Below, in pieces: positions 218 through 6,751 of a DNA stretch of 6,751 bases. Source of the stretch: a virus. Lineage: Duplodnaviria > Heunggongvirae > Uroviricota > Caudoviricetes. The notes under the pieces were generated by a model. That model ran no database searches. It saw nothing but the letters and a program-made list of their open reading frames with translations, and was not told the DNA's origin. Position 1 is the stretch's first letter. Every line of letters begins with the position of its first letter. The DNA is taken from the IMG/VR virus record IMGVR_UViG_2609459836_000001; one strand, given 5' to 3'. A program made the translations under genes and the position numbers.

Positions 218-489
218 GTATTCGTATCGAAATTGGCGAACGTTATGTCGTTACCAGTGACAGCTTTCAGTTTATTCTCCACGAGAAAAAGAGAGCGGAA
301 AGCGGTAAAAACGCCGGTCAGGAATGGCTGTCGGTGGTTGGTTATTACCCGAAATTAAGCCAGCTCGTTTCCGGCCTGATGCATCACGATATTCTGACCG
401 GAAGCGCAAAGTCTTTTGCTGATTTAAACGCGCAGGTTGAGCAACTCAGCAAGCGTTGTTCAGAGGCTTTTGGCTCATATGGCCGTTAA
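214..489 (+). CDS. small hypothetical protein of the P2 early replication operon (Orf83-like by position)
   Basis: 91-codon ATG-initiated ORF from the ORF track. It is coupled upstream by an ATGA overlap and overlaps the gene A start by 11 nt (A ATG at 479, this ORF's TAA at 487..489). The peptide is protein-like; function is unknown. Confidence 0.55.
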   Translation: MSIRIEIGERYVVTSDSFQFILHEKKRAESGKNAGQEWLSVVGYYPKLSQLVSGLMHHDILTGSAKSFADLNAQVEQLSKRCSEAFGSYGR

Positions 490-2764
490 AGCCTCCGGGC
501 GTTTTGTCCCTCCGTCAGCATTTGCCGCAGGCACCGGTAAGGCGTTTACCGGTGCTTATGCATGGAACGCGCCACGCGAGGCCGTCGGGCGCGAAAGACC
601 CCTTACACGTGACGAGATGCGTCAGGTGCAAGGTGTTTTATCCACGATTAACCGCCTGCCTTACTTTTTGCGCTCGCTGTTTACTTCACGCTATGACTAC
701 ATCCGGCGCAATAAAAGCCCGGTGCACGGGTTTTATTTTCTCACATCCACTTTTCAGCGTCGTTTATGGCCGCGCATTGAGCGTGTGAATCAGCGCCATG
801 AAATGAACACCGACGCGTCGTTGCTGTTTCTGGCAGAGCGTGACCATTATGCGCGTCTGCCGGGGATGAATGACAAGGAGCTGAAAAAGTTTGCCGCCCG
901 TATCTCATCGCAGCTTTTCATGATGTATGAGGAACTCTGCGATGCCTGGGTGGATGCGCATGGCGAGAAAGAATCGCTGTTTACGGATGAGGCACAGGCT
1001 CACCTGTATGGTCATGTTGCTGGCGCTGCACGAGCTTTCAATATTTCCCCTCTCTACTGGAAAAAATACCGTAAAGGGCAGATGACCACGAGGCAGGCAT
1101 ATTCTGCCATTGCCCGTCTGTTTAACGATGAGTGGTGGATTAGTCAGCTTAAAGGCCAGCGTATGCGCTGGCATGAGGCGTTACTGATTGCTGTCGGGGA
1201 GGTCAATAAAGACCGTTCTCCTTATGCCAGTAAACATGCCATTCGTGATGTGCGTGCACGCCGCCAGGCAAATCTGGAATTTCTTAAATCGTGTGATCTC
1301 GAAAACAGGGAAACCGGCGAGCGCATCGACCTTATCAGTAAGGTGATGGGCAGTATTTCTAATCCTGAAATTCGCCGGATGGAGCTGATGAACACCATTG
1401 CCGGTATTGAGCGTTACGCCGCAGCAGAGGGTGATGTGGGGATGTTTATCACGCTGACCGCGCCGTCAAAGTATCACCCGACACGTCAGGTTGGAAAAGG
1501 CGAAAGTAAAACCGTCCAGCTAAATCACGGCTGGAACGATGAGGCATTTAATCCAAAGGATGCGCAGCGTTATCTCTGCCGTATCTGGAGCCTGATGCGC
1601 ACGGCATTCAAGGATAATGATTTACAGGTCTACGGTTTGCGTGTCGTCGAGCCACACCACGACGGAACGCCGCACTGGCATATGATGCTTTTTTGTAATC
1701 CGCGCCAGCGTAACCAGATTATCGAAATCATGCGTCGCTATGCGCTCAAAGAGGATGGCGACGAAAGAGGAGCCGCGCGAAACCGTTTTCAGGCAAAACA
1801 CCTTAATCGGGGCGGTGCTGCGGGGTATATCGCGAAATACATCTCAAAAAACATCGACGGCTATGCACTGGATGGTCAGCTCGATAACGATACCGGCAGA
1901 CCTCTGAAAGATACTGCCGCGGCTGTTACTGCATGGGCGTCAACGTGGCGCATCCCGCAATTTAAAACGGTTGGTCTGCCGACAATGGGGGCTTACCGTG
2001 AACTACGCAAATTGCCTCGCGGCGTCAGCATTGCTGATGAGTTTGACGAACGCGTCGAGGCTGCACGCGCTGCCGCAGACAGTGGCGATTTTGCGTTGTA
2101 TATCAGTGCGCAGGGTGGGGCAAATGTCCCGCGCGATTGTCAGACTGTCAGGGTCGCCCGTAGTCCGTCGGATGAAGTTAACGAGTACGAGGAAGAAGTC
2201 GAGAGAGTGGTCGGCATTTACGCGCCGCATCTCGGCGCGCGTCATATTCATATCACCAGAACGACGGACTGGCGCATTGTTCCGAAAGTGCCGGTCGTTG
2301 AGCCTTTGACTTTAAAAAGCGGCATCGCCGCGCCTCGGAGTCCTGTCAATAACTGTGGAATGCTCACCGGTGGTGATACTTCGTTACCGGCTCCCACACC
2401 TTCTGAGCACGCCGCAGCAGTGCTTAATCTGGTTGATGACGGAGTTATCGAATGGAATGAGCCGGAGGTCGTGAGGGCGCTCAGGGGCGCATTAAAACAC
2501 GGCCTGAGAACACCTAATCGTCAGCAAAGAAACGGAAGCCCGTTAAAACAGCATGAAATAGCGCCATCGGCCAGACTGACCCGGTCGGAACGAATGCAAA
2601 TCACCCGTATCCGTGTTGACCTTGCTCAGAACGGTATCAGGCCGCAGCGATGGGAGCTTGAGGCGCTGGCGCGTGGCGCGACCGTAAATTATGACGGGAA
2701 AAAATTCACGTATCCGGTCGCTGATGAGTGGCCGGGATTCTCAACGGTAATGGAGTGGATATAA
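479..2764 (+). CDS. A: rolling-circle replication initiator endonuclease gpA (P2 gene A family, HUH superfamily)
   Basis: Long ORF; I place the start at the first ATG (479, MAVKASGRF...) rather than the in-frame TTG at 437 given in the ORF track. This gives 761 aa, the length I recall for P2 A. HUH motif H399-W-H401 (TPHWHMMLF) is at 1673..1681. The two-tyrosine motif GYIAKYISK puts Y450 at 1826..1828 and Y454 at 1838..1840, the residue numbers I recall for the P2 A active-site tyrosines. A possible AGAGG Shine-Dalgarno lies at 462..466. Confidence 0.9.
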   Translation: MAVKASGRFVPPSAFAAGTGKAFTGAYAWNAPREAVGRERPLTRDEMRQVQGVLSTINRLPYFLRSLFTSRYDYIRRNKSPVHGFYFLTSTFQRRLWPRIERVNQRHEMNTDASLLFLAERDHYARLPGMNDKELKKFAARISSQLFMMYEELCDAWVDAHGEKESLFTDEAQAHLYGHVAGAARAFNISPLYWKKYRKGQMTTRQAYSAIARLFNDEWWISQLKGQRMRWHEALLIAVGEVNKDRSPYASKHAIRDVRARRQANLEFLKSCDLENRETGERIDLISKVMGSISNPEIRRMELMNTIAGIERYAAAEGDVGMFITLTAPSKYHPTRQVGKGESKTVQLNHGWNDEAFNPKDAQRYLCRIWSLMRTAFKDNDLQVYGLRVVEPHHDGTPHWHMMLFCNPRQRNQIIEIMRRYALKEDGDERGAARNRFQAKHLNRGGAAGYIAKYISKNIDGYALDGQLDNDTGRPLKDTAAAVTAWASTWRIPQFKTVGLPTMGAYRELRKLPRGVSIADEFDERVEAARAAADSGDFALYISAQGGANVPRDCQTVRVARSPSDEVNEYEEEVERVVGIYAPHLGARHIHITRTTDWRIVPKVPVVEPLTLKSGIAAPRSPVNNCGMLTGGDTSLPAPTPSEHAAAVLNLVDDGVIEWNEPEVVRALRGALKHGLRTPNRQQRNGSPLKQHEIAPSARLTRSERMQITRIRVDLAQNGIRPQRWELEALARGATVNYDGKKFTYPVADEWPGFSTVMEWI
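2330..2349 (+). other. candidate rolling-circle origin (ori) nick-site region inside gene A
   Basis: In P2 the ori lies inside the A coding sequence and A acts in cis (established). The sequence GCGCCTCGGAGTCCTGTCAA contains a near-palindrome GGAGTCC and matches my unverified recollection of the P2 ori oligonucleotide. Its position about 1.85 kb into A is roughly where the P2 ori (about 89% of the genome) should fall. Low confidence. Confidence 0.3.
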
Positions 2765-2800
2765 TGGCAAAAATTCACGAGATCTTAGATAGTTTCGTAC

Positions 2801-2875
2801 TGTATATATTTAGTTGTTACTTGCAGTTTGGTATTGTTTGCCATGGTTGTTTGTTAAGTGCTTTAAAGGTGAGGA
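2801..2875 (+). promoter_or_regulatory. putative promoter and ribosome-binding region of the AT-rich cargo gene
   Basis: The 111-bp AT-rich intergenic spacer after the A stop contains TG + TATATAT (2801..2809) as a -10-like element, with TTGTTA (2814..2819) and TTGCAG (2821..2826) as candidate -35-like hexamers. AAAGGTGAGGA (2865..2875) is a Shine-Dalgarno immediately before the ATG at 2876. No convincing -35/-10 pair with 17-bp spacing was found, so the promoter is tentative. Confidence 0.25.
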
Positions 2876-4714
2876 ATGAGCGAGTTCGATGTTTTTTCTA
2901 TTTCAGTTGATGATTTTAAAAAAAGTGAGTACGCCAGTATATTGTTACCACCAAGAAGCCATTCTTATTTTGAAATGGAATCTTATTTTTTTCAGTTGTT
3001 GTTATTTTATAAGCAAAAAAAAGATGTGAGTTCTTGGAGGGTTTGCTATTTATTACGTTCGTTATTTAGTTTAAAATTTTCTAAGTCTGGTGATATTATC
3101 GACTTTGAGTCTAAAATCATTCTCTATCCTAAGCGAGGTTATAGACCTTCAGATTACAAGGATAATTATTTAACCATATTAACTTGTATTAAAGAAAATA
3201 CTGATAACCCTTATATTATATCTAGGGTGTGTGATGTTTTATGGATAAATAACCGTAAGGATATAGATTCTGCTAATAAAGCAATAGAGTCATATGCTCT
3301 AATGATTAATGATGCTTGTGATACTTTGTTAGAAAAAAAGGAATCAGGTGACATCCATGTTTTTGATGTTGTTGACTGCTTGGATAGAGGTATTACAATA
3401 TCGCGCATGCTTATTGGCAGGAAAAAACAACTGCAAGGAGGGATAGTTGACTCGACGTTAAGGCTATATCATATATTAATAGATTCTAGTATATTTATCG
3501 GTGTTTTAAGAATTTCTGAAATTCTTTATAAGAATAATTTATTGTGCCCCTTACAATTGGCTAAGAATGCAGAAAAGATAGCTGATGAGCATTGTGGAGC
3601 TTCTTATTTTGATGCTGTGAAAAAATTGTTTTATTTTGCGTCTGAATTATATGTTAAAAATGATATGGAAGAGCAAGGAAGAAGGTGCAAAATGAAAGCG
3701 ACAGAAATAACATTGGCTCAATTTGAACAGTCTTCATCTCCAACATTGAAGGCTCATTGGCTAAGAGTTGCTCTTGGGGAATTTAGAGCGATTGGTGGAA
3801 TGAGTGAAAGGATTAAAGAGATTAAAGAGGAATTAAATTCTATTCGAGATCAAATCAATGATGAAATGTATTCCTTTGCAATACCAATGGATCTTAGTGA
3901 TGTTATCGCTCAGAAAGAGCATATTTATAATCAATTAAATTTCTCAGAAATAATTAAAAAATTAATCTCTAGATTTAAGGTTGTAAGTGCCAGTGAGATT
4001 ATGGAAAGAGTTCGCTCTGATGCTAAGAGATATTTTTTTGTTAATGTGAGTGATACGGTTTTTTATGATGACAGAGGACGCGTTGTGGCAAGGCAACCAC
4101 CTTTAGATTCTGCTGGGGATATAAGTCTAGATGATGCCTGTGTAAATTATTTAAGAACTAGTAATATTGAGCATCAGTTTTATGTTTATGGTGAGTTTGA
4201 AGTTGTTAGGCAAAGAGTGTTGTCTAGGTATTCATTAAATGAGAATACATTTGACCCAATCTCACAACAAAGTCTATTTGTTCCTCCTGGGTATGCGGAA
4301 ATATTTTCTTTAGGATTTCTTAAGCTTTGGCAGGGGGATTATGTGTCTGCCTGTTATTTGTTGTTGCCGCAGTTGGAGAATTCAATTAGATGGATTTTAG
4401 AATTAAGAAGAAAAGAAACAACGAAAATAGATGTGTCACTTTTTGAGGAGGCTACTAGTCTATCTCAAATGCTTGCAAATTATAAGAGTGAAATGGAAGG
4501 TATTTTTGGGAGTGATCATGTATTGACTATGGATTTATTGTTCAATATGAAAGGTGGTGCTGCAATTAGACACACGATGGCTCATGGCAGGTATACTGTA
4601 AATCATTGTTATCAACCAACTTCAGTTTTTGCCTGTGTCTTTATCTTTTATTTAACTTGTTTGCCTTTATTTAGTGTATGGGAAGATAAAGTTGAACCTT
4701 ATCTGACTGATTAA
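2876..4714 (+). CDS. hypothetical 612-aa protein: horizontally acquired cargo in the A-to-cos variable locus; candidate anti-phage defence protein with possible C-terminal HEPN-like motif
   Basis: Uninterrupted 612-codon ORF with a strong Shine-Dalgarno. Base composition is visibly AT-rich (roughly one third GC by eye; not computed) against clearly more GC-rich flanks. No Walker A/P-loop is visible. An Rx4H motif (AIRHTMAHG, R565..H570) lies at 4568..4585 and a hydrophobic C-terminal segment SVFACVFIFYLTCLPLFSVW follows. I do not recognise the protein as tin, old or any named system. Confidence 0.8.
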   Translation: MSEFDVFSISVDDFKKSEYASILLPPRSHSYFEMESYFFQLLLFYKQKKDVSSWRVCYLLRSLFSLKFSKSGDIIDFESKIILYPKRGYRPSDYKDNYLTILTCIKENTDNPYIISRVCDVLWINNRKDIDSANKAIESYALMINDACDTLLEKKESGDIHVFDVVDCLDRGITISRMLIGRKKQLQGGIVDSTLRLYHILIDSSIFIGVLRISEILYKNNLLCPLQLAKNAEKIADEHCGASYFDAVKKLFYFASELYVKNDMEEQGRRCKMKATEITLAQFEQSSSPTLKAHWLRVALGEFRAIGGMSERIKEIKEELNSIRDQINDEMYSFAIPMDLSDVIAQKEHIYNQLNFSEIIKKLISRFKVVSASEIMERVRSDAKRYFFVNVSDTVFYDDRGRVVARQPPLDSAGDISLDDACVNYLRTSNIEHQFYVYGEFEVVRQRVLSRYSLNENTFDPISQQSLFVPPGYAEIFSLGFLKLWQGDYVSACYLLLPQLENSIRWILELRRKETTKIDVSLFEEATSLSQMLANYKSEMEGIFGSDHVLTMDLLFNMKGGAAIRHTMAHGRYTVNHCYQPTSVFACVFIFYLTCLPLFSVWEDKVEPYLTD

Positions 4715-4875
4715 TGGAAGTTGATTTAGGTATTTTGGCATTTATCTTTCTGCGTGCAATATGTGCATGGTTTTGCATGTGCCGGAGTTGCATGTTCCGG
4801 CCGTGCGTCCGCCAGAACGGGCGTGGCTCAAAAGCGGTATTGCACCTGCATTAAAAACACCCCATGAAGCGGGCG

Positions 4876-4894
4876 GGCGAGGCGGGGAAAGCAC
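4876..4894. other. cos site: 19-nt P2-type cohesive-end sequence GGCGAGGCGGGGAAAGCAC
   Basis: Exact match to the 19-nt cohesive-end sequence I recall for P2. It sits about 190 bp from the Q stop, in the same orientation and relative position as in P2, where Q is the first gene next to the left cos end. Confidence 0.7.
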
Positions 4895-5063: not shown

Positions 5064-6098
5064 TCAGCCGTTGTCAGTGTCCAGTGAGTAGTTTTTAAAG
5101 CGGATGACCTCCTGACCGAGCCAGCCGTTTATCTCGCGGATCCTGTCCTGTAACGGGATAAGCTCATTGCGGACAAAGACCTTTGCCACTTTCTCAATAT
5201 CACCCAGCGACCCGACGTTCTCCGGCTTGCCCCCCATCAACTGAAAGGGGATGCGGTGCGCGTCCAGCAGGTCAGCGGCGCTGGCTTTTTTGATATTAAA
5301 AAAATCGTCCTTCGTTGCCACTTCACTGAGCGGGATAATTTTAATGCCGTCGGCTTTCCCCTGTGGGGCATAGAGAAACAGATTTTTAAAGTTATTGCGG
5401 CCTTTCGACTTAACCATGTTTTCGCGAAGCATTTCGATATCGTTGCGATCCTGCACGGCATCAGTGACGTACATGATGTATCCGGCATGTGCGCCGTTTT
5501 CGTAATACTTGCGGCGGAACAGCGTGGCCGACTCATTCAGCCAGGCAGAGTTAAGGGCGCTGAGATATTCCGGCAGGCCGTACAGCTCCTGATTAATATC
5601 CGGCTCCAGCAGGTGAAACACGGAGCCGGGCGTGAAAGGTGTCGGCTCGTTGAAGGACGGCACCCACCAGTAAACATCCTCCTCCACCCCACGGCGGGTA
5701 TATTTTGCCGGTGAGGTTTCCAGTCTGATGACCTTACCGGTAGTGCTGTAACGCTTTTCCAGAAACGCATTACCGAACACCAGAAAATCCAGCACAAAGC
5801 GGCTGAAATCCTGCTGAGAAAGCCACGGATGCGGGATAAATGTCGAGGCCAGAATATTGCGTTTGACGTAAATTGGTGAGCTGTGATGCACGGCAGCACG
5901 CAGGCTTTTTGCCAGACCAGTAAAGCTGACCGGTGGCTCATACCATCTGCCGTTACTGATGCACTCGACGTAATCCAGAATGTCACGGCGGTCGAGTACC
6001 GGCACCGGCTCACCAAAGGTGAATGCTTCCATTTTCGGGGCGCTGGCGGTCATTTTTTTTGCCGCAGGTTGCGGTGTTTTCCCTTTTTTCTTGCTCAT
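5064..6098 (-). CDS. Q: capsid portal protein gpQ (P2 gene Q family)
   Basis: 344-codon ORF, the same length as P2 Q by my recollection. It lies next to cos on the complement strand as in P2. Its start overlaps the stop of the upstream minus-strand ORF by 1 nt, the arrangement I recall for P2 P/Q. The translation reads as a globular phage structural protein. Confidence 0.8.
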   Translation of the reverse strand: MSKKKGKTPQPAAKKMTASAPKMEAFTFGEPVPVLDRRDILDYVECISNGRWYEPPVSFTGLAKSLRAAVHHSSPIYVKRNILASTFIPHPWLSQQDFSRFVLDFLVFGNAFLEKRYSTTGKVIRLETSPAKYTRRGVEEDVYWWVPSFNEPTPFTPGSVFHLLEPDINQELYGLPEYLSALNSAWLNESATLFRRKYYENGAHAGYIMYVTDAVQDRNDIEMLRENMVKSKGRNNFKNLFLYAPQGKADGIKIIPLSEVATKDDFFNIKKASAADLLDAHRIPFQLMGGKPENVGSLGDIEKVAKVFVRNELIPLQDRIREINGWLGQEVIRFKNYSLDTDNG

Positions 6099-6436
6099 CA
6101 GTAAAACTCCAGAATGGTGGATGTCAGCGGGGTGCTGATACCGGCGGTGAGTGGCTCATTTAACAGGGCGTGCATGGTCGCCCAGGCGAGGTCGGCGTGG
6201 CTGGCTTCCTCGCTGCGGCTGGCCTCATAGGTGGCACTGCGTCCGCTGCTGGTCATGGTCTTGCGGATAGCCATAAACGAGCTGGTGATGTCGGTGGCGC
6301 TGACGTCATATTCCAGACAGCCACGGCGGATAACGTCTTTGGCCTTGAGCACCATTGCGGTTTTCATTTCCGGCGTGTAACGGGAGTATTGCCTCCACAC
6401 TGGCGACGTCGCTGTCATTTGAAAAGCGTTACACGC
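6098..6436 (-). pseudogene. P: 3' fragment of terminase large (ATPase) subunit gene P; 5' portion missing
   Basis: A minus-strand frame ending in TGA coupled to the Q start is where the C-terminus of P should be. The frame is open only back to a stop at 6437..6439 (ORF track 6098..6418, 106 aa), whereas P2 P is about 590 aa. Sequence beyond about 6420 instead encodes a + strand ORF. Identity as P rests on synteny only. Confidence 0.45.
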
Positions 6437-6751
6437 TCAATGTCATTGTGACCGACTTTACCGGTGATTTTGACCTGCTCATCGTGCCGGTGCTGGCGTG
6501 GCTGCGGGAAAATCAGCCCGACATCATGACCACTGACGAAGGCCAGAAAAAGGGCTTCACGTTTTATGCAGACATCAACAATGACAGCAGCTTTGATATC
6601 AGCATCAGCCTGATGCTGACCGAGCGCACGCTGGTCAGTGAGGTGGACGGCGCGCTGCATGTGAAGAATATCCCGGAACCCACGCCGCCGGAGCCGGTCA
6701 CCCGCCCGATGGAGCTTTATATCAATGGCGAACTGGTGAGCAAGTGGGATG
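6349..6751 (+). CDS. partial + strand ORF running off the window; possibly a P2 late-operon tail protein (tentatively tail-completion gpR-like), true start undetermined
   Basis: The frame is open from just after TGA 6346..6348 to the window end. Translation ...NGSIASTLATSLSFEKRYTLNVIVTDFTGDFDLLIVPVLAWLRENQPDIMTTDEGQKKGFTFYADINNDSSFDISISLMLTERTLVSEVDGALHVKNIPEPTPPEPVTRPMELYINGELVSKWD is strongly protein-like. Orientation matches the P2 late operon O..S, but it is not scaffold gene O, which is what should follow P. The gpR assignment is an unverified recollection. Candidate starts are TTG 6355, GTG 6448 and ATG 6521. Confidence 0.35.

What the first reader, a model, noticed from the sequence alone, without database searches (positions are those of the whole stretch)
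2765..4714. AT-rich 612-aa orphan gene fills the P2 A-to-cos (orf91/tin/old) hotspot: candidate new anti-phage defence gene
In P2 the segment between replication gene A and cos carries orf91, tin and old; tin and old are phage-exclusion genes expressed from the lysogen. In P2-like prophages this locus is a recognised hotspot for swapped defence cargo. Here tin and old are absent and a single 612-codon ORF with its own AT-rich upstream region takes their place. Its base composition differs sharply from the backbone, consistent with recent horizontal acquisition. I cannot assign the protein to any defence family I know: it has no Walker A and no obvious nuclease, methylase or RT signature. This makes it the most likely undescribed system in the window.
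Basis: partly seen in the sequence, partly recalled or inferred. Interest (0 to 1): 0.85.

Follow-up and report, generated by a model that had tools for sequence, protein, structure and literature searches.

The report
Catalogued HEPN candidate defence gene, P2 hotspot
The AT-rich 612-codon gene between the P2 replication gene and the cos site is real and probably an RNA-cutting anti-phage gene, but it belongs to a large, already catalogued and still untested family, not to an orphan or undescribed system.

Summary
A 612-aa ORF (2876..4714, GC 33% against about 53% in the flanks) is the only cargo between P2 gpA and cos/gpQ. This slot carries different cargo in other P2-like phages.

The gene is already catalogued three times:
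- PADLOC candidate PDC-S39 (E 2e-73, untested).
- P2-hotspot system #55 "DUF4209" in Rousset et al. 2022; the near-identical WP_042964140 is in their locus table.
- ORF612 of prophage P2-EC46.

A 33%-identical paralog from the same hotspot was cloned and tested against eight phages by Rousset et al. and was not among the validated systems.

Best reading: a single-protein abortive-infection RNase, with a helical-repeat sensor and a HEPN effector. Its activity and target are unproven. Moderate interest; a new member of a known kind.

The parts
479..2764 (+). Left conserved flank: P2 gpA replication endonuclease. The longest ORF runs from TTG at 437; the RefSeq start in the 99%-identical locus L001 maps to 479.
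   Evidence: Pfam Phage_GPA E 9e-124. Annotated 'replication endonuclease' in L001.
2732..2875 (+). Cassette-specific left end. It holds the last ~11 codons of gpA, a sigma-70-like site (-35 at 2738-2743, -10 at 2760-2765), an AT-rich spacer and the RBS AAGGTGAGG at 2866-2874.
   Evidence: Homology to a P2-like phage with different cargo (L003) stops at 2731. Promoter scan (10 sites found against 8.2 expected, so weak evidence on its own). Sequence. An RBS is annotated at the same place in AM157366.1.
2876..4714 (+). 612-aa gene: DUF7380, helical repeats and a DUF4209-type HEPN domain. PADLOC candidate PDC-S39.
   Evidence: dN/dS 0.23. AF2 full-length model pLDDT 91.3.
2897..3427 (+). N-terminal DUF7380 domain (aa 8-184), with nearly invariant R87, D93, R117, D120, W123 and R171. 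Inferred sensor or regulatory module.
   Evidence: Pfam PF24098, 91.2 bits against a cut-off of 27. 60 of 60 family members match. Conservation.
3428..4228 (+). Middle alpha-helical, TPR-like repeat region (aa 185-451).
4229..4711 (+). C-terminal HEPN domain (aa 452-612; DUF4209/C6orf70 type). Inferred RNase effector.
4376..4390 (+). Codons E501-N-S-I-R505. E501 and R505 are invariant and lie in the long helix aa 489-510 of the HEPN domain.
   Evidence: Alignments A2 and A4.
4568..4588 (+). Codons R565-H-T-M-A-H570-G571, the Rx4H HEPN catalytic motif. R565, H570 and G571 are invariant; H566 and A569 are conserved in at least 90% of sequences.
4715..4838 (+). Cassette-specific right end, with a weak terminator-like hairpin at 4753-4769.
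   Evidence: Homology to other-cargo phage L003 resumes at 4839. Terminator scan.
4876..4894 (.). P2 cos cohesive-end sequence GGCGAGGCGGGGAAAGCAC.
   Evidence: Exact match found at 4876. That this is the cos sequence rests on my own knowledge of P2. Rousset et al. place the hotspot next to cos.
5064..6098 (-). Right conserved flank: portal protein gpQ.
   Evidence: Pfam Phage_portal. Annotated as portal protein in L001.

Best explanation
The gene is a horizontally acquired cargo cassette of a P2-like prophage. It encodes a single-protein candidate abortive-infection nuclease of the DUF7380-DUF4209 family (PADLOC PDC-S39).

Shown here:
- The gene is an intact gene under purifying selection and sits in the gpA-cos hotspot.
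- Its C-terminal 160 residues form a HEPN fold carrying the family-invariant Rx4H motif and an invariant E...R pair.
- The N-terminal 450 residues are DUF7380 followed by TPR-like helical repeats.
- No conserved partner gene accompanies it.

Inferred, not shown:
- The lysogen expresses the protein from the cassette's own promoter.
- The helical N-terminal part holds the HEPN domain inactive until a product or consequence of infection by another phage is sensed.
- Two HEPN domains then pair into a composite active site, as in other HEPN RNases, and cut RNA (tRNA, rRNA or mRNA).
- Translation stops, and the infecting phage is aborted at the cost of the infected cell.

The target range is probably narrow.
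For: - Hotspot position, with swapped cargo in relatives.
- Full-length PADLOC PDC-S39 match, E 1.9e-73. PDC candidates were derived from genes embedded in BREX, DISARM and type I RM systems.
- E501, R505, G561, R565, H570 and G571 are invariant in 60 sequences down to 19% identity.
- DUF4209 was assigned to the HEPN superfamily and predicted to be catalytically active, with a note that it occurs in RM-related operons (PMC3710099).
- Distant homologs sit in mobile or defence contexts. One lies after two integrases beside QatABCD and an MmeI-type RM. One lies beside a type III-like methylase and helicase on a conjugative plasmid. Across nine other loci the neighbours include SoFic, Pycsar, DRT and other PDC genes.
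- The gene stays intact in degraded P2 remnants where gpA is fragmented. dN/dS is 0.23.
- Other HEPN single-protein systems lose defence when the Rx4-6H motif is mutated: HEC-08 and DS-11.
Against: - No member of the family has a published defence phenotype in the literature I could search.
- The 33%-identical paralog from the same hotspot (E. coli S88, pFR103) was cloned with its native promoter and tested on eight phages. It is listed only among 'additional tested systems', not the validated ones.
- Not all cargo at this hotspot is defensive. About a quarter of loci carry partition systems and about 2% carry cdt toxin genes.
- This protein itself does not reach the Pfam DUF4209 model.
- The neighbourhood evidence is anecdotal and was not tested for enrichment. 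Many neighbours are housekeeping genes.
- RNase activity, dimerisation, the trigger and expression were not tested.
Confidence: 0.55

Rival explanations
1. The gene is a weapon for competition among P2-like phages and their P4-like satellites, or for superinfection exclusion of close relatives, rather than a general anti-phage system. The HEPN RNase would fire only on a P2/P4-type trigger, which would explain why standard coliphage panels show nothing.
For: - The hotspot lies next to cos, which P2 and P4 share.
- Rousset et al. showed that one hotspot system (TIR plus transmembrane proteins, from phage AC1) restricts P2 itself.
- The paralog showed no validated activity against the eight-phage panel.
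Against: Family members also occur far from P2-like phages: on integrative elements, on plasmids, in Alphaproteobacteria, a cyanobacterium and an archaeal plasmid. A P2/P4-specific trigger cannot be general for the family.
Confidence: 0.15
2. The gene is a non-defence 'moron'. The protein would be an RNA-processing or regulatory factor that changes host or prophage physiology, for example stress-dependent RNA decay by analogy with eukaryotic ERMARD/C6orf70. Alternatively its HEPN domain binds a nucleotide or ligand and does not cut RNA.
For: - The hotspot also carries non-defence cargo such as partition systems and cdt toxin genes.
- Many neighbours of distant homologs are housekeeping genes.
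Against: - Non-catalytic HEPN domains usually lack a conserved Rx4-6H motif (established knowledge; Anantharaman et al. 2013). Here the motif and the E/R pair are invariant.
- The distribution is patchy and tied to mobile elements.
- The gene was picked up by guilt-by-embedding in RM/BREX/DISARM systems.
Confidence: 0.15
3. The gene is a selfish addiction or toxin module that stabilises the prophage remnant. A constitutively toxic HEPN RNase would be kept in check in cis by its own N-terminal domain or by an unrecognised small antitoxin.
For: - The gene stays intact in degraded prophages.
Against: - There is no adjacent MNT-type or other conserved partner ORF in the cassette.
- Partner genes differ between loci.
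- No Rfam RNA family matches the window.
- The paralog was cloned alone (listed with one gene and one protein) on a low-copy plasmid.
Confidence: 0.08
4. The gene is a decaying, non-functional passenger in a defective prophage.
For: The prophage in the window is deleted for the capsid and lysis genes.
Against: - The 612-codon frame is intact.
- dN/dS is 0.23 overall and 0.20 in the HEPN part.
- All catalytic-motif residues are retained.
- The protein differs by two residues from the copy in strain VE-V10-F (L001), and the locus is 99.8-99.9% identical in six complete genomes.
Confidence: 0.03

Closest known systems
PADLOC phage-defence candidate PDC-S39 (Payne et al., guilt-by-embedding set of 145 candidates)
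   Same: Full-length HMM match: aa 8-599 against model positions 7-583 of 595, E 1.9e-73, plus a second model at 5.4e-68. Both are single-gene.
   Different: PDC candidates were found embedded in BREX, DISARM and type I RM loci and are untested. This copy is cargo of a P2-like prophage hotspot.
Rousset et al. 2022 P2-hotspot systems #55 and #13 ('DUF4209'), and the tested clone pFR103 'Putative HEPN' from E. coli S88
   Same: - System #55's representative protein begins with the same sequence as the 88%-identical allele P0002.
- WP_042964140, which differs from the window protein at two residues, is in their Table S5A.
- All occupy the same gpA-gpQ slot.
- System #13/pFR103 is a 33%-identical full-length paralog with the same E...R and RHxxAHG motifs.
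   Different: Only the #13 paralog was cloned and tested, and it was not validated. The #55 type, to which this gene belongs, appears never to have been tested.
ORF612 of prophage P2-EC46 (GenBank AM157366.1; survey of the P2 tin-old region in the ECOR collection)
   Same: 87.6% protein identity, the same length and the same RBS position.
   Different: It was deposited as a hypothetical protein, with no domain or function assigned.
Validated single-protein HEPN defence systems: HEC-08 (DUF3644 HEPN plus zinc ribbons), DS-11 (CBS plus HEPN), PD-T7-4 and DS-38 (HEPN plus zinc finger)
   Same: They share the logic of one polypeptide that joins a HEPN Rx4-6H effector to a non-catalytic sensor or regulatory module. 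In HEC-08 and DS-11 defence is lost when the motif or the HEPN catalytic residues are mutated.
   Different: The HEPN family differs (DUF4209 type), and so does the partner module (DUF7380 plus TPR-like repeats). No PADLOC model of a named system matched.
Eukaryotic C6orf70/ERMARD family (Pfam PF13910)
   Same: Anantharaman et al. 2013 place it in the same HEPN family as the bacterial DUF4209 proteins and predict it to be catalytically active.
   Different: The eukaryotic proteins carry a transmembrane region and are predicted to sit in the ER. The relationship of this particular protein rests on homologs that hit PF13910, not on a direct hit.
P2 tin and old, the cargo of the reference P2 at this slot
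   Same: Same genomic slot, and the same presumed role of excluding other phages from the lysogen.
   Different: No sequence or domain relationship. This protein has no ABC ATPase Walker A motif, no TOPRIM domain and no PADLOC hit other than PDC-S39.

Membership tests
HEPN superfamily | Compact all-alpha helical-bundle fold shared with solved HEPN domains | tested here: met
HEPN superfamily | Conserved Rx4-6H motif, usually with a polar residue directly after the arginine | tested here: met
   R565-H566-T-M-A-H570-G571. R565, H570 and G571 are invariant in 60 sequences down to 19% identity; H566 and A569 are conserved in at least 90%.
HEPN superfamily | Metal-independent RNase activity from a dimeric composite active site | not testable with these tools
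Pfam DUF4209 (PF13910; C6orf70/ERMARD-type HEPN) | Match to the PF13910 model | tested here: inconclusive
   This protein has no hit at E<=1. However, 43 of 60 aligned family members match, including homologs at 49% and 28% identity. The 33-36% paralog is annotated as a DUF4209 protein, and Rousset Table S5B labels the 88% allele DUF4209.
Pfam DUF7380 (PF24098) | Match above the gathering score | tested here: met
   91.2 bits against a cut-off of 27, aa 8-184. RefSeq names the protein 'DUF7380 domain-containing protein'.
PADLOC PDC-S39 | Full-length match to the PDC-S39 HMM as a stand-alone gene | tested here: met
   PDLC05011 at E 1.9e-73, covering aa 8-599; PDLC05012 at 5.4e-68. No conserved neighbouring gene.
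Experimentally validated anti-phage defence system | Reduced plating or abortive infection when expressed, dependent on the catalytic motif | not testable with these tools
   No report was found for any family member. The 33% paralog pFR103 was tested on eight phages and not validated.
HEPN-MNT or RnlAB/LsoAB-type toxin-antitoxin module | An adjacent cognate antitoxin gene (MNT nucleotidyltransferase, RnlB or LsoB) | tested here: not met
   There is no second ORF of 60 aa or more in the cassette 2732..4838 apart from short overlapping ones. The protein has no nucleotidyltransferase Pfam hit. Neighbours vary between loci.
P2 Old (ABC ATPase plus TOPRIM) and Tin | Walker A ATPase and TOPRIM nuclease domains, or similarity to Tin | tested here: not met
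   No Walker A motif. No ATPase or TOPRIM Pfam hit. PDC-S39 is the only PADLOC hit.
P2 gpA-cos/gpQ cargo hotspot | Conserved gpA and cos/gpQ flanks with unrelated cargo in related phages | tested here: met
   Flanks are more than 96% identical in dozens of P2-like phages whose cargo differs. The boundaries of the variable block are 2731/2732 and 4838/4839. The hotspot is described in PMC9122126.

The most novel reading that the evidence does not exclude
DUF7380 could be a new kind of infection sensor. Its nearly invariant R87/D93/R117/D120/W123/R171 cluster would bind a phage-derived ligand or protein, and binding would license dimerisation of a DUF4209 HEPN RNase. Because Anantharaman et al. 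2013 trace DUF4209 (C6orf70/ERMARD) back to the last eukaryotic common ancestor, validating this family would add a prokaryotic immune RNase with a conserved eukaryotic descendant of unknown biochemistry. It would also turn an untested PADLOC candidate into a mechanistically new single-gene system.
Probability: 0.25. Interest if true: 0.6.

Novelty: new member of a known kind. Interest (0 to 1): 0.35.

Why it matters
If the gene is active, it would be the first functional evidence for a widespread family. That family has more than a thousand clusters at 50% identity and occurs in prophages, plasmids, integrative elements and an archaeal plasmid. At present it exists only as a computational candidate (PDC-S39, or 'DUF4209' cargo of the P2 hotspot).

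It would also give a biochemical handle on the DUF4209 HEPN domain shared with eukaryotic ERMARD/C6orf70, and on the uncharacterised DUF7380 module.

As it stands, the finding is a sensible experimental target but not a discovery. The gene, its location and its candidate status are already in public catalogues, and the one tested relative gave no phenotype.

Tried and rejected
- Sequence searches against solved structures gave only chance-level hits. This was true for the single protein, the full-length profile and the C-terminal profile.
- A second homologous-protein search using the 60-sequence profile returned the same seven proteins and added nothing.
The closer alignment A1 gave only 10 loci.
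- NCBIfam had no model. PHROGs only gave an unknown-function family, phrog_5183.
- Rfam found no RNA family in the window, so a retron-like or RNA-antitoxin component is not supported.
- The repeat search found only short two-copy matches.
- The Odegrip 2006 paper could not be read. The NAR 2026 P2/P4 paper has no supplement held.
- Literature searches for DUF7380, DUF4209, PDC-S39, ERMARD plus HEPN, and the protein accessions found no functional study.
- A transmembrane reading of the hydrophobic C-terminal helix was considered and judged unlikely. The family mean hydropathy is 1.22, and the helix is part of the confidently modelled HEPN domain.
Full report
**1. What is in the sequence**

The window contains a single long ORF at 2876..4714 on the + strand (612 aa, ATG start). 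The finding's start coordinate, 2765, is the first base after the stop codon of the upstream gene, so its span is the ORF plus the 111-bp spacer in front of it.

The composition shift is sharp and real. Every 300-nt window across 2700-4800 has GC 0.29-0.38, against 0.50-0.59 on both sides. The ORF has GC 0.331 and GC3 0.257, whereas the upstream gene has 0.536 and 0.550.

- The upstream gene is the P2-type replication endonuclease gpA (Pfam Phage_GPA, E 9e-124).
- The downstream gene on the minus strand (5064..6098) is the portal protein gpQ.
- The 19-nt string I know as the P2 cohesive end, GGCGAGGCGGGGAAAGCAC, is at 4876-4894.
- No tin, old or orf91 equivalent is present.

The spacer has an RBS (AAGGTGAGG, 2866-2874). 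A sigma-70-like site, TTCTCA-16-TATAAT, lies at 2738-2765. The scan found 10 promoter-like sites against 8.2 expected by chance, so this site is only suggestive.

**2. Is this the hotspot, and where are its edges?**

It is the hotspot.
- Against complete E. coli genomes, the 2.1-kb locus is present at 80% coverage or more in 21 of 5,426 genomes. It always lies between 'replication endonuclease' and 'phage portal protein' of P2-like prophages.
- Against phage records, dozens of P2-like phages match the flanks at 96-97% identity but carry unrelated cargo. Examples are VbhT/Fic, ParaMORC3+Dcm, cdtABC, DUF4238, retron Ec48, DUF3850 and a PAPS reductase.
- Rousset et al. 2022 (PMC9122126) describe this gpA-gpQ, cos-adjacent hotspot. 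They counted 1,650 arrangements in 18,150 E. coli loci.
- Comparison with a P2-like phage that carries different cargo (L003) places the variable block at 2732..4838. The cassette therefore brings its own last ~11 codons of gpA and its own upstream region.

**3. The protein is not an orphan**

- Pfam finds DUF7380 at aa 8-184 (91 bits against a cut-off of 27).
- PADLOC-DB matches the untested candidate PDC-S39 end to end (E 1.9e-73).
- PHROGs has a family of unknown function. NCBIfam has nothing.
- A word-indexed search found only seven clusters, with identities of 100, 88, 76, 52, 52, 49 and 28%. The two most distant also carry Pfam DUF4209 (PF13910).
- A full HMMER profile search of 1.84 billion cluster representatives found 3,709 hits at E<=1e-3 and 1,116 at E<=1e-30. 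Most of the listed hits are 600-640 aa and matched over the whole length.
- In a 60-sequence alignment reaching 19% identity, all 60 members match DUF7380 and 43 match DUF4209.

The family architecture is therefore DUF7380, then a helical region, then DUF4209.

**4. The nuclease signature**

Only six positions besides the start methionine are invariant in that alignment: E501, R505, G561, R565, H570 and G571. H566 and A569 are conserved in at least 90% of sequences. R565-H-T-M-A-H570 is an Rx4H motif, the hallmark of HEPN ribonucleases.

Anantharaman et al. 2013 (PMC3710099) assigned DUF4209, the C6orf70 family, to the HEPN superfamily. They predicted it to be catalytically active, noted that bacterial members occur in RM-related operons, and traced the family back to the last eukaryotic common ancestor.

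I tested the fold independently:
- The full-length AF2 model is confident (pLDDT 91.3, pTM 0.77). Its fold searches return only TPR-like solenoids such as BamD, Rap phosphatases and SNAPs. These describe the N-terminal two thirds of the protein.

**5. Already catalogued**

- The protein of strain VE-V10-F (L001), annotated WP_042964140.1, differs from the window protein at two residues. The same accession appears in Rousset Table S5A under genome NZ_CP030281.
- The 88% allele is the representative of their hotspot system #55, labelled Pfam 'DUF4209', with 76 occurrences. A second DUF4209 type, system #13, has 193 occurrences.
- The 88% allele was deposited as 'ORF612' of prophage P2-EC46 from strain ECOR46 (AM157366.1).
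- PADLOC's PDC set consists of 145 candidates found embedded in BREX, DISARM and type I RM loci. The authors state that they are untested.
- Papers that mention PDC-S39 only list it in genome inventories.
- I found no functional study of any family member.

**6. The one relevant experiment is negative**

Rousset's Table S2B ('additional tested systems') contains pFR103, named 'Putative HEPN', from the P2 locus of E. coli S88 (one gene). Its protein starts MNDIFVLTREEL..., which is system #13. The same type of protein in phage vB_EcoM-569R9 is 33% identical to the window protein over the full length and keeps the E...R and RHxxAHG motifs.

The paper states that systems were cloned with their native promoters on a pSC101 vector and tested against eight phages. 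It lists validated systems in Table S2A and the remaining tested systems in S2B. A relative from the same slot therefore showed no validated defence on that panel. This does not exclude a narrow range, since many systems act on only a few phages, but it lowers confidence.

**7. Context elsewhere**

- The 52% homolog occupies the same gpA-to-portal slot in an Enterobacter-type P2 remnant. There gpA is split into three fragments while the DUF7380 gene is intact.
- The 28% homolog follows two integrases and sits beside QatABCD and an MmeI-type RM enzyme.
- On plasmids the family occurs in Salmonella, Pantoea, Cedecea, Aeromonas, Klebsiella, Bradyrhizobium and the archaeon Natrinema. The Aeromonas copy is bracketed by recombinases next to a methyltransferase and a DEAD-box helicase. 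The Cedecea copy is near genes of a three-component ABC system.
- Among 121 ORFs around nine distant genomic homologs, PADLOC models hit SoFic (3 ORFs), PDC-S24 (2), PDC-S04, a reverse transcriptase matching DRT models, Pycsar cyclase and effector, and PD-Lambda-2_B. Pfam also shows integrases, a T4SS coupling protein and many housekeeping genes.
- This is anecdotal support for a mobile, defence-associated lifestyle, not a statistical test. No partner gene is conserved, so the unit is a single gene.

**8. Selection**

Against the 92%-identical allele of E. coli ECC-1470, dN/dS is 0.23. By region it is 0.20 for the N-terminal part, 0.27 for the middle and 0.20 for the HEPN part. The gene is maintained by purifying selection even though the prophage in the window is defective (see section 10).

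**9. Mechanism, with the basis for each step**

Shown:
- The domain architecture.
- The invariant HEPN motif.
- The hotspot location.
- The absence of a conserved partner gene.

Inferred from knowledge of HEPN systems (Csm6, RnlA/LsoA, HEPN-MNT, HEC-08, DS-11):
- Two HEPN domains pair to form the active site.
- The N-terminal module keeps the enzyme off until infection is sensed.
- RNA cleavage halts translation and aborts the infection.

I put this at 0.55. The rivals are a weapon specific to P2/P4 competition (0.15), a non-defence or non-catalytic role (0.15), an addiction toxin (0.08) and a decaying relic (0.03).

**10. Verdict**

The gene is a plausible defence gene in the right place. It is, however, a member of a large, catalogued, HEPN-containing candidate family (PDC-S39, or Rousset system #55), not an orphan and not an undescribed system.

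Novelty: a new member of a known kind, namely a single-protein HEPN effector with a helical sensor. Interest is about 0.35. It is a reasonable target for experiment, mainly because the family is untested, widespread and related to eukaryotic ERMARD. A specialist would not be surprised by it.

Noticed in passing
window 6098..6751 (junction near 6378-6383): The prophage is defective. A C-terminal remnant of the terminase gpP gene (minus strand) is joined directly to the gpR tail-completion gene. Window 6378-6751 matches L001 15064-15437, so the scaffold, capsid, small-terminase and lysis genes are missing. None of the 5,426 complete E. coli genomes carries this exact junction.
   Followed up: partly
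L006, L007 and L008 (Enterobacter-type loci), genes around 8146-15444 of L006: The 52% homolog sits in a P2 remnant with a similar 'portal, Terminase_6C fragment, GpR' layout and a gpA split into three fragments. The DUF7380 gene itself is intact, which suggests retention of the cargo after the prophage decayed.
   Followed up: no
window 2697-2779: The left recombination boundary of the cassette lies inside the last ~11 codons of gpA, because homology to other-cargo phages stops at 2731. A 14-nt direct repeat, GG[A/C]AAAAATTCACG, occurs at 2697 and 2766 on either side of that tail. It could be a recombination scar or a chance match.
   Followed up: no
window 3134-3388 (codons R87, D93, R117, D120, W123, R171): The DUF7380 domain has a nearly invariant polar cluster: R87, D93, R117, D120, W123 and R171, each conserved in at least 90% of 60 diverse sequences. 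Its role is unknown. It could be a ligand or trigger-binding pocket, or a second active site.
   Followed up: no
window 4616-4681 (aa 581-602): The last long helix (TSVFACVFIFYLTCLPLFSVW) is very hydrophobic in this allele, with Kyte-Doolittle 2.17 over 19 residues. The family mean is 1.22, and only 10 of 60 members exceed 1.6. It is probably a buried HEPN helix or a dimer interface, but membrane association is not excluded. Eukaryotic C6orf70/ERMARD is membrane-anchored.
   Followed up: partly
L002 10222-10954; Rousset Table S5A rows containing WP_001288417: The 88% allele often shares the hotspot with further cargo. In some loci this is two small hypothetical ORFs (WP_087891114 and WP_023567683). 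In others it is a hypothetical protein plus a reverse-transcriptase (RVT_1) gene. Hotspots therefore stack several cassettes.
   Followed up: no
L019 (Aeromonas hydrophila plasmid NZ_CP095282.1) 6040-14736; H56 (Natrinema sp. J7-2 plasmid): A distant DUF4209 homolog on a conjugative plasmid is bracketed by two recombinase genes and lies next to a methyltransferase plus a DEAD-box helicase (type III RM-like). The family also reaches an archaeal plasmid.
   Followed up: no
window 2700-4800: GC skew is strongly positive throughout the AT-rich cargo (0.17-0.36), against about 0-0.1 in the flanks. This is a further compositional mark of foreign origin.
   Followed up: no
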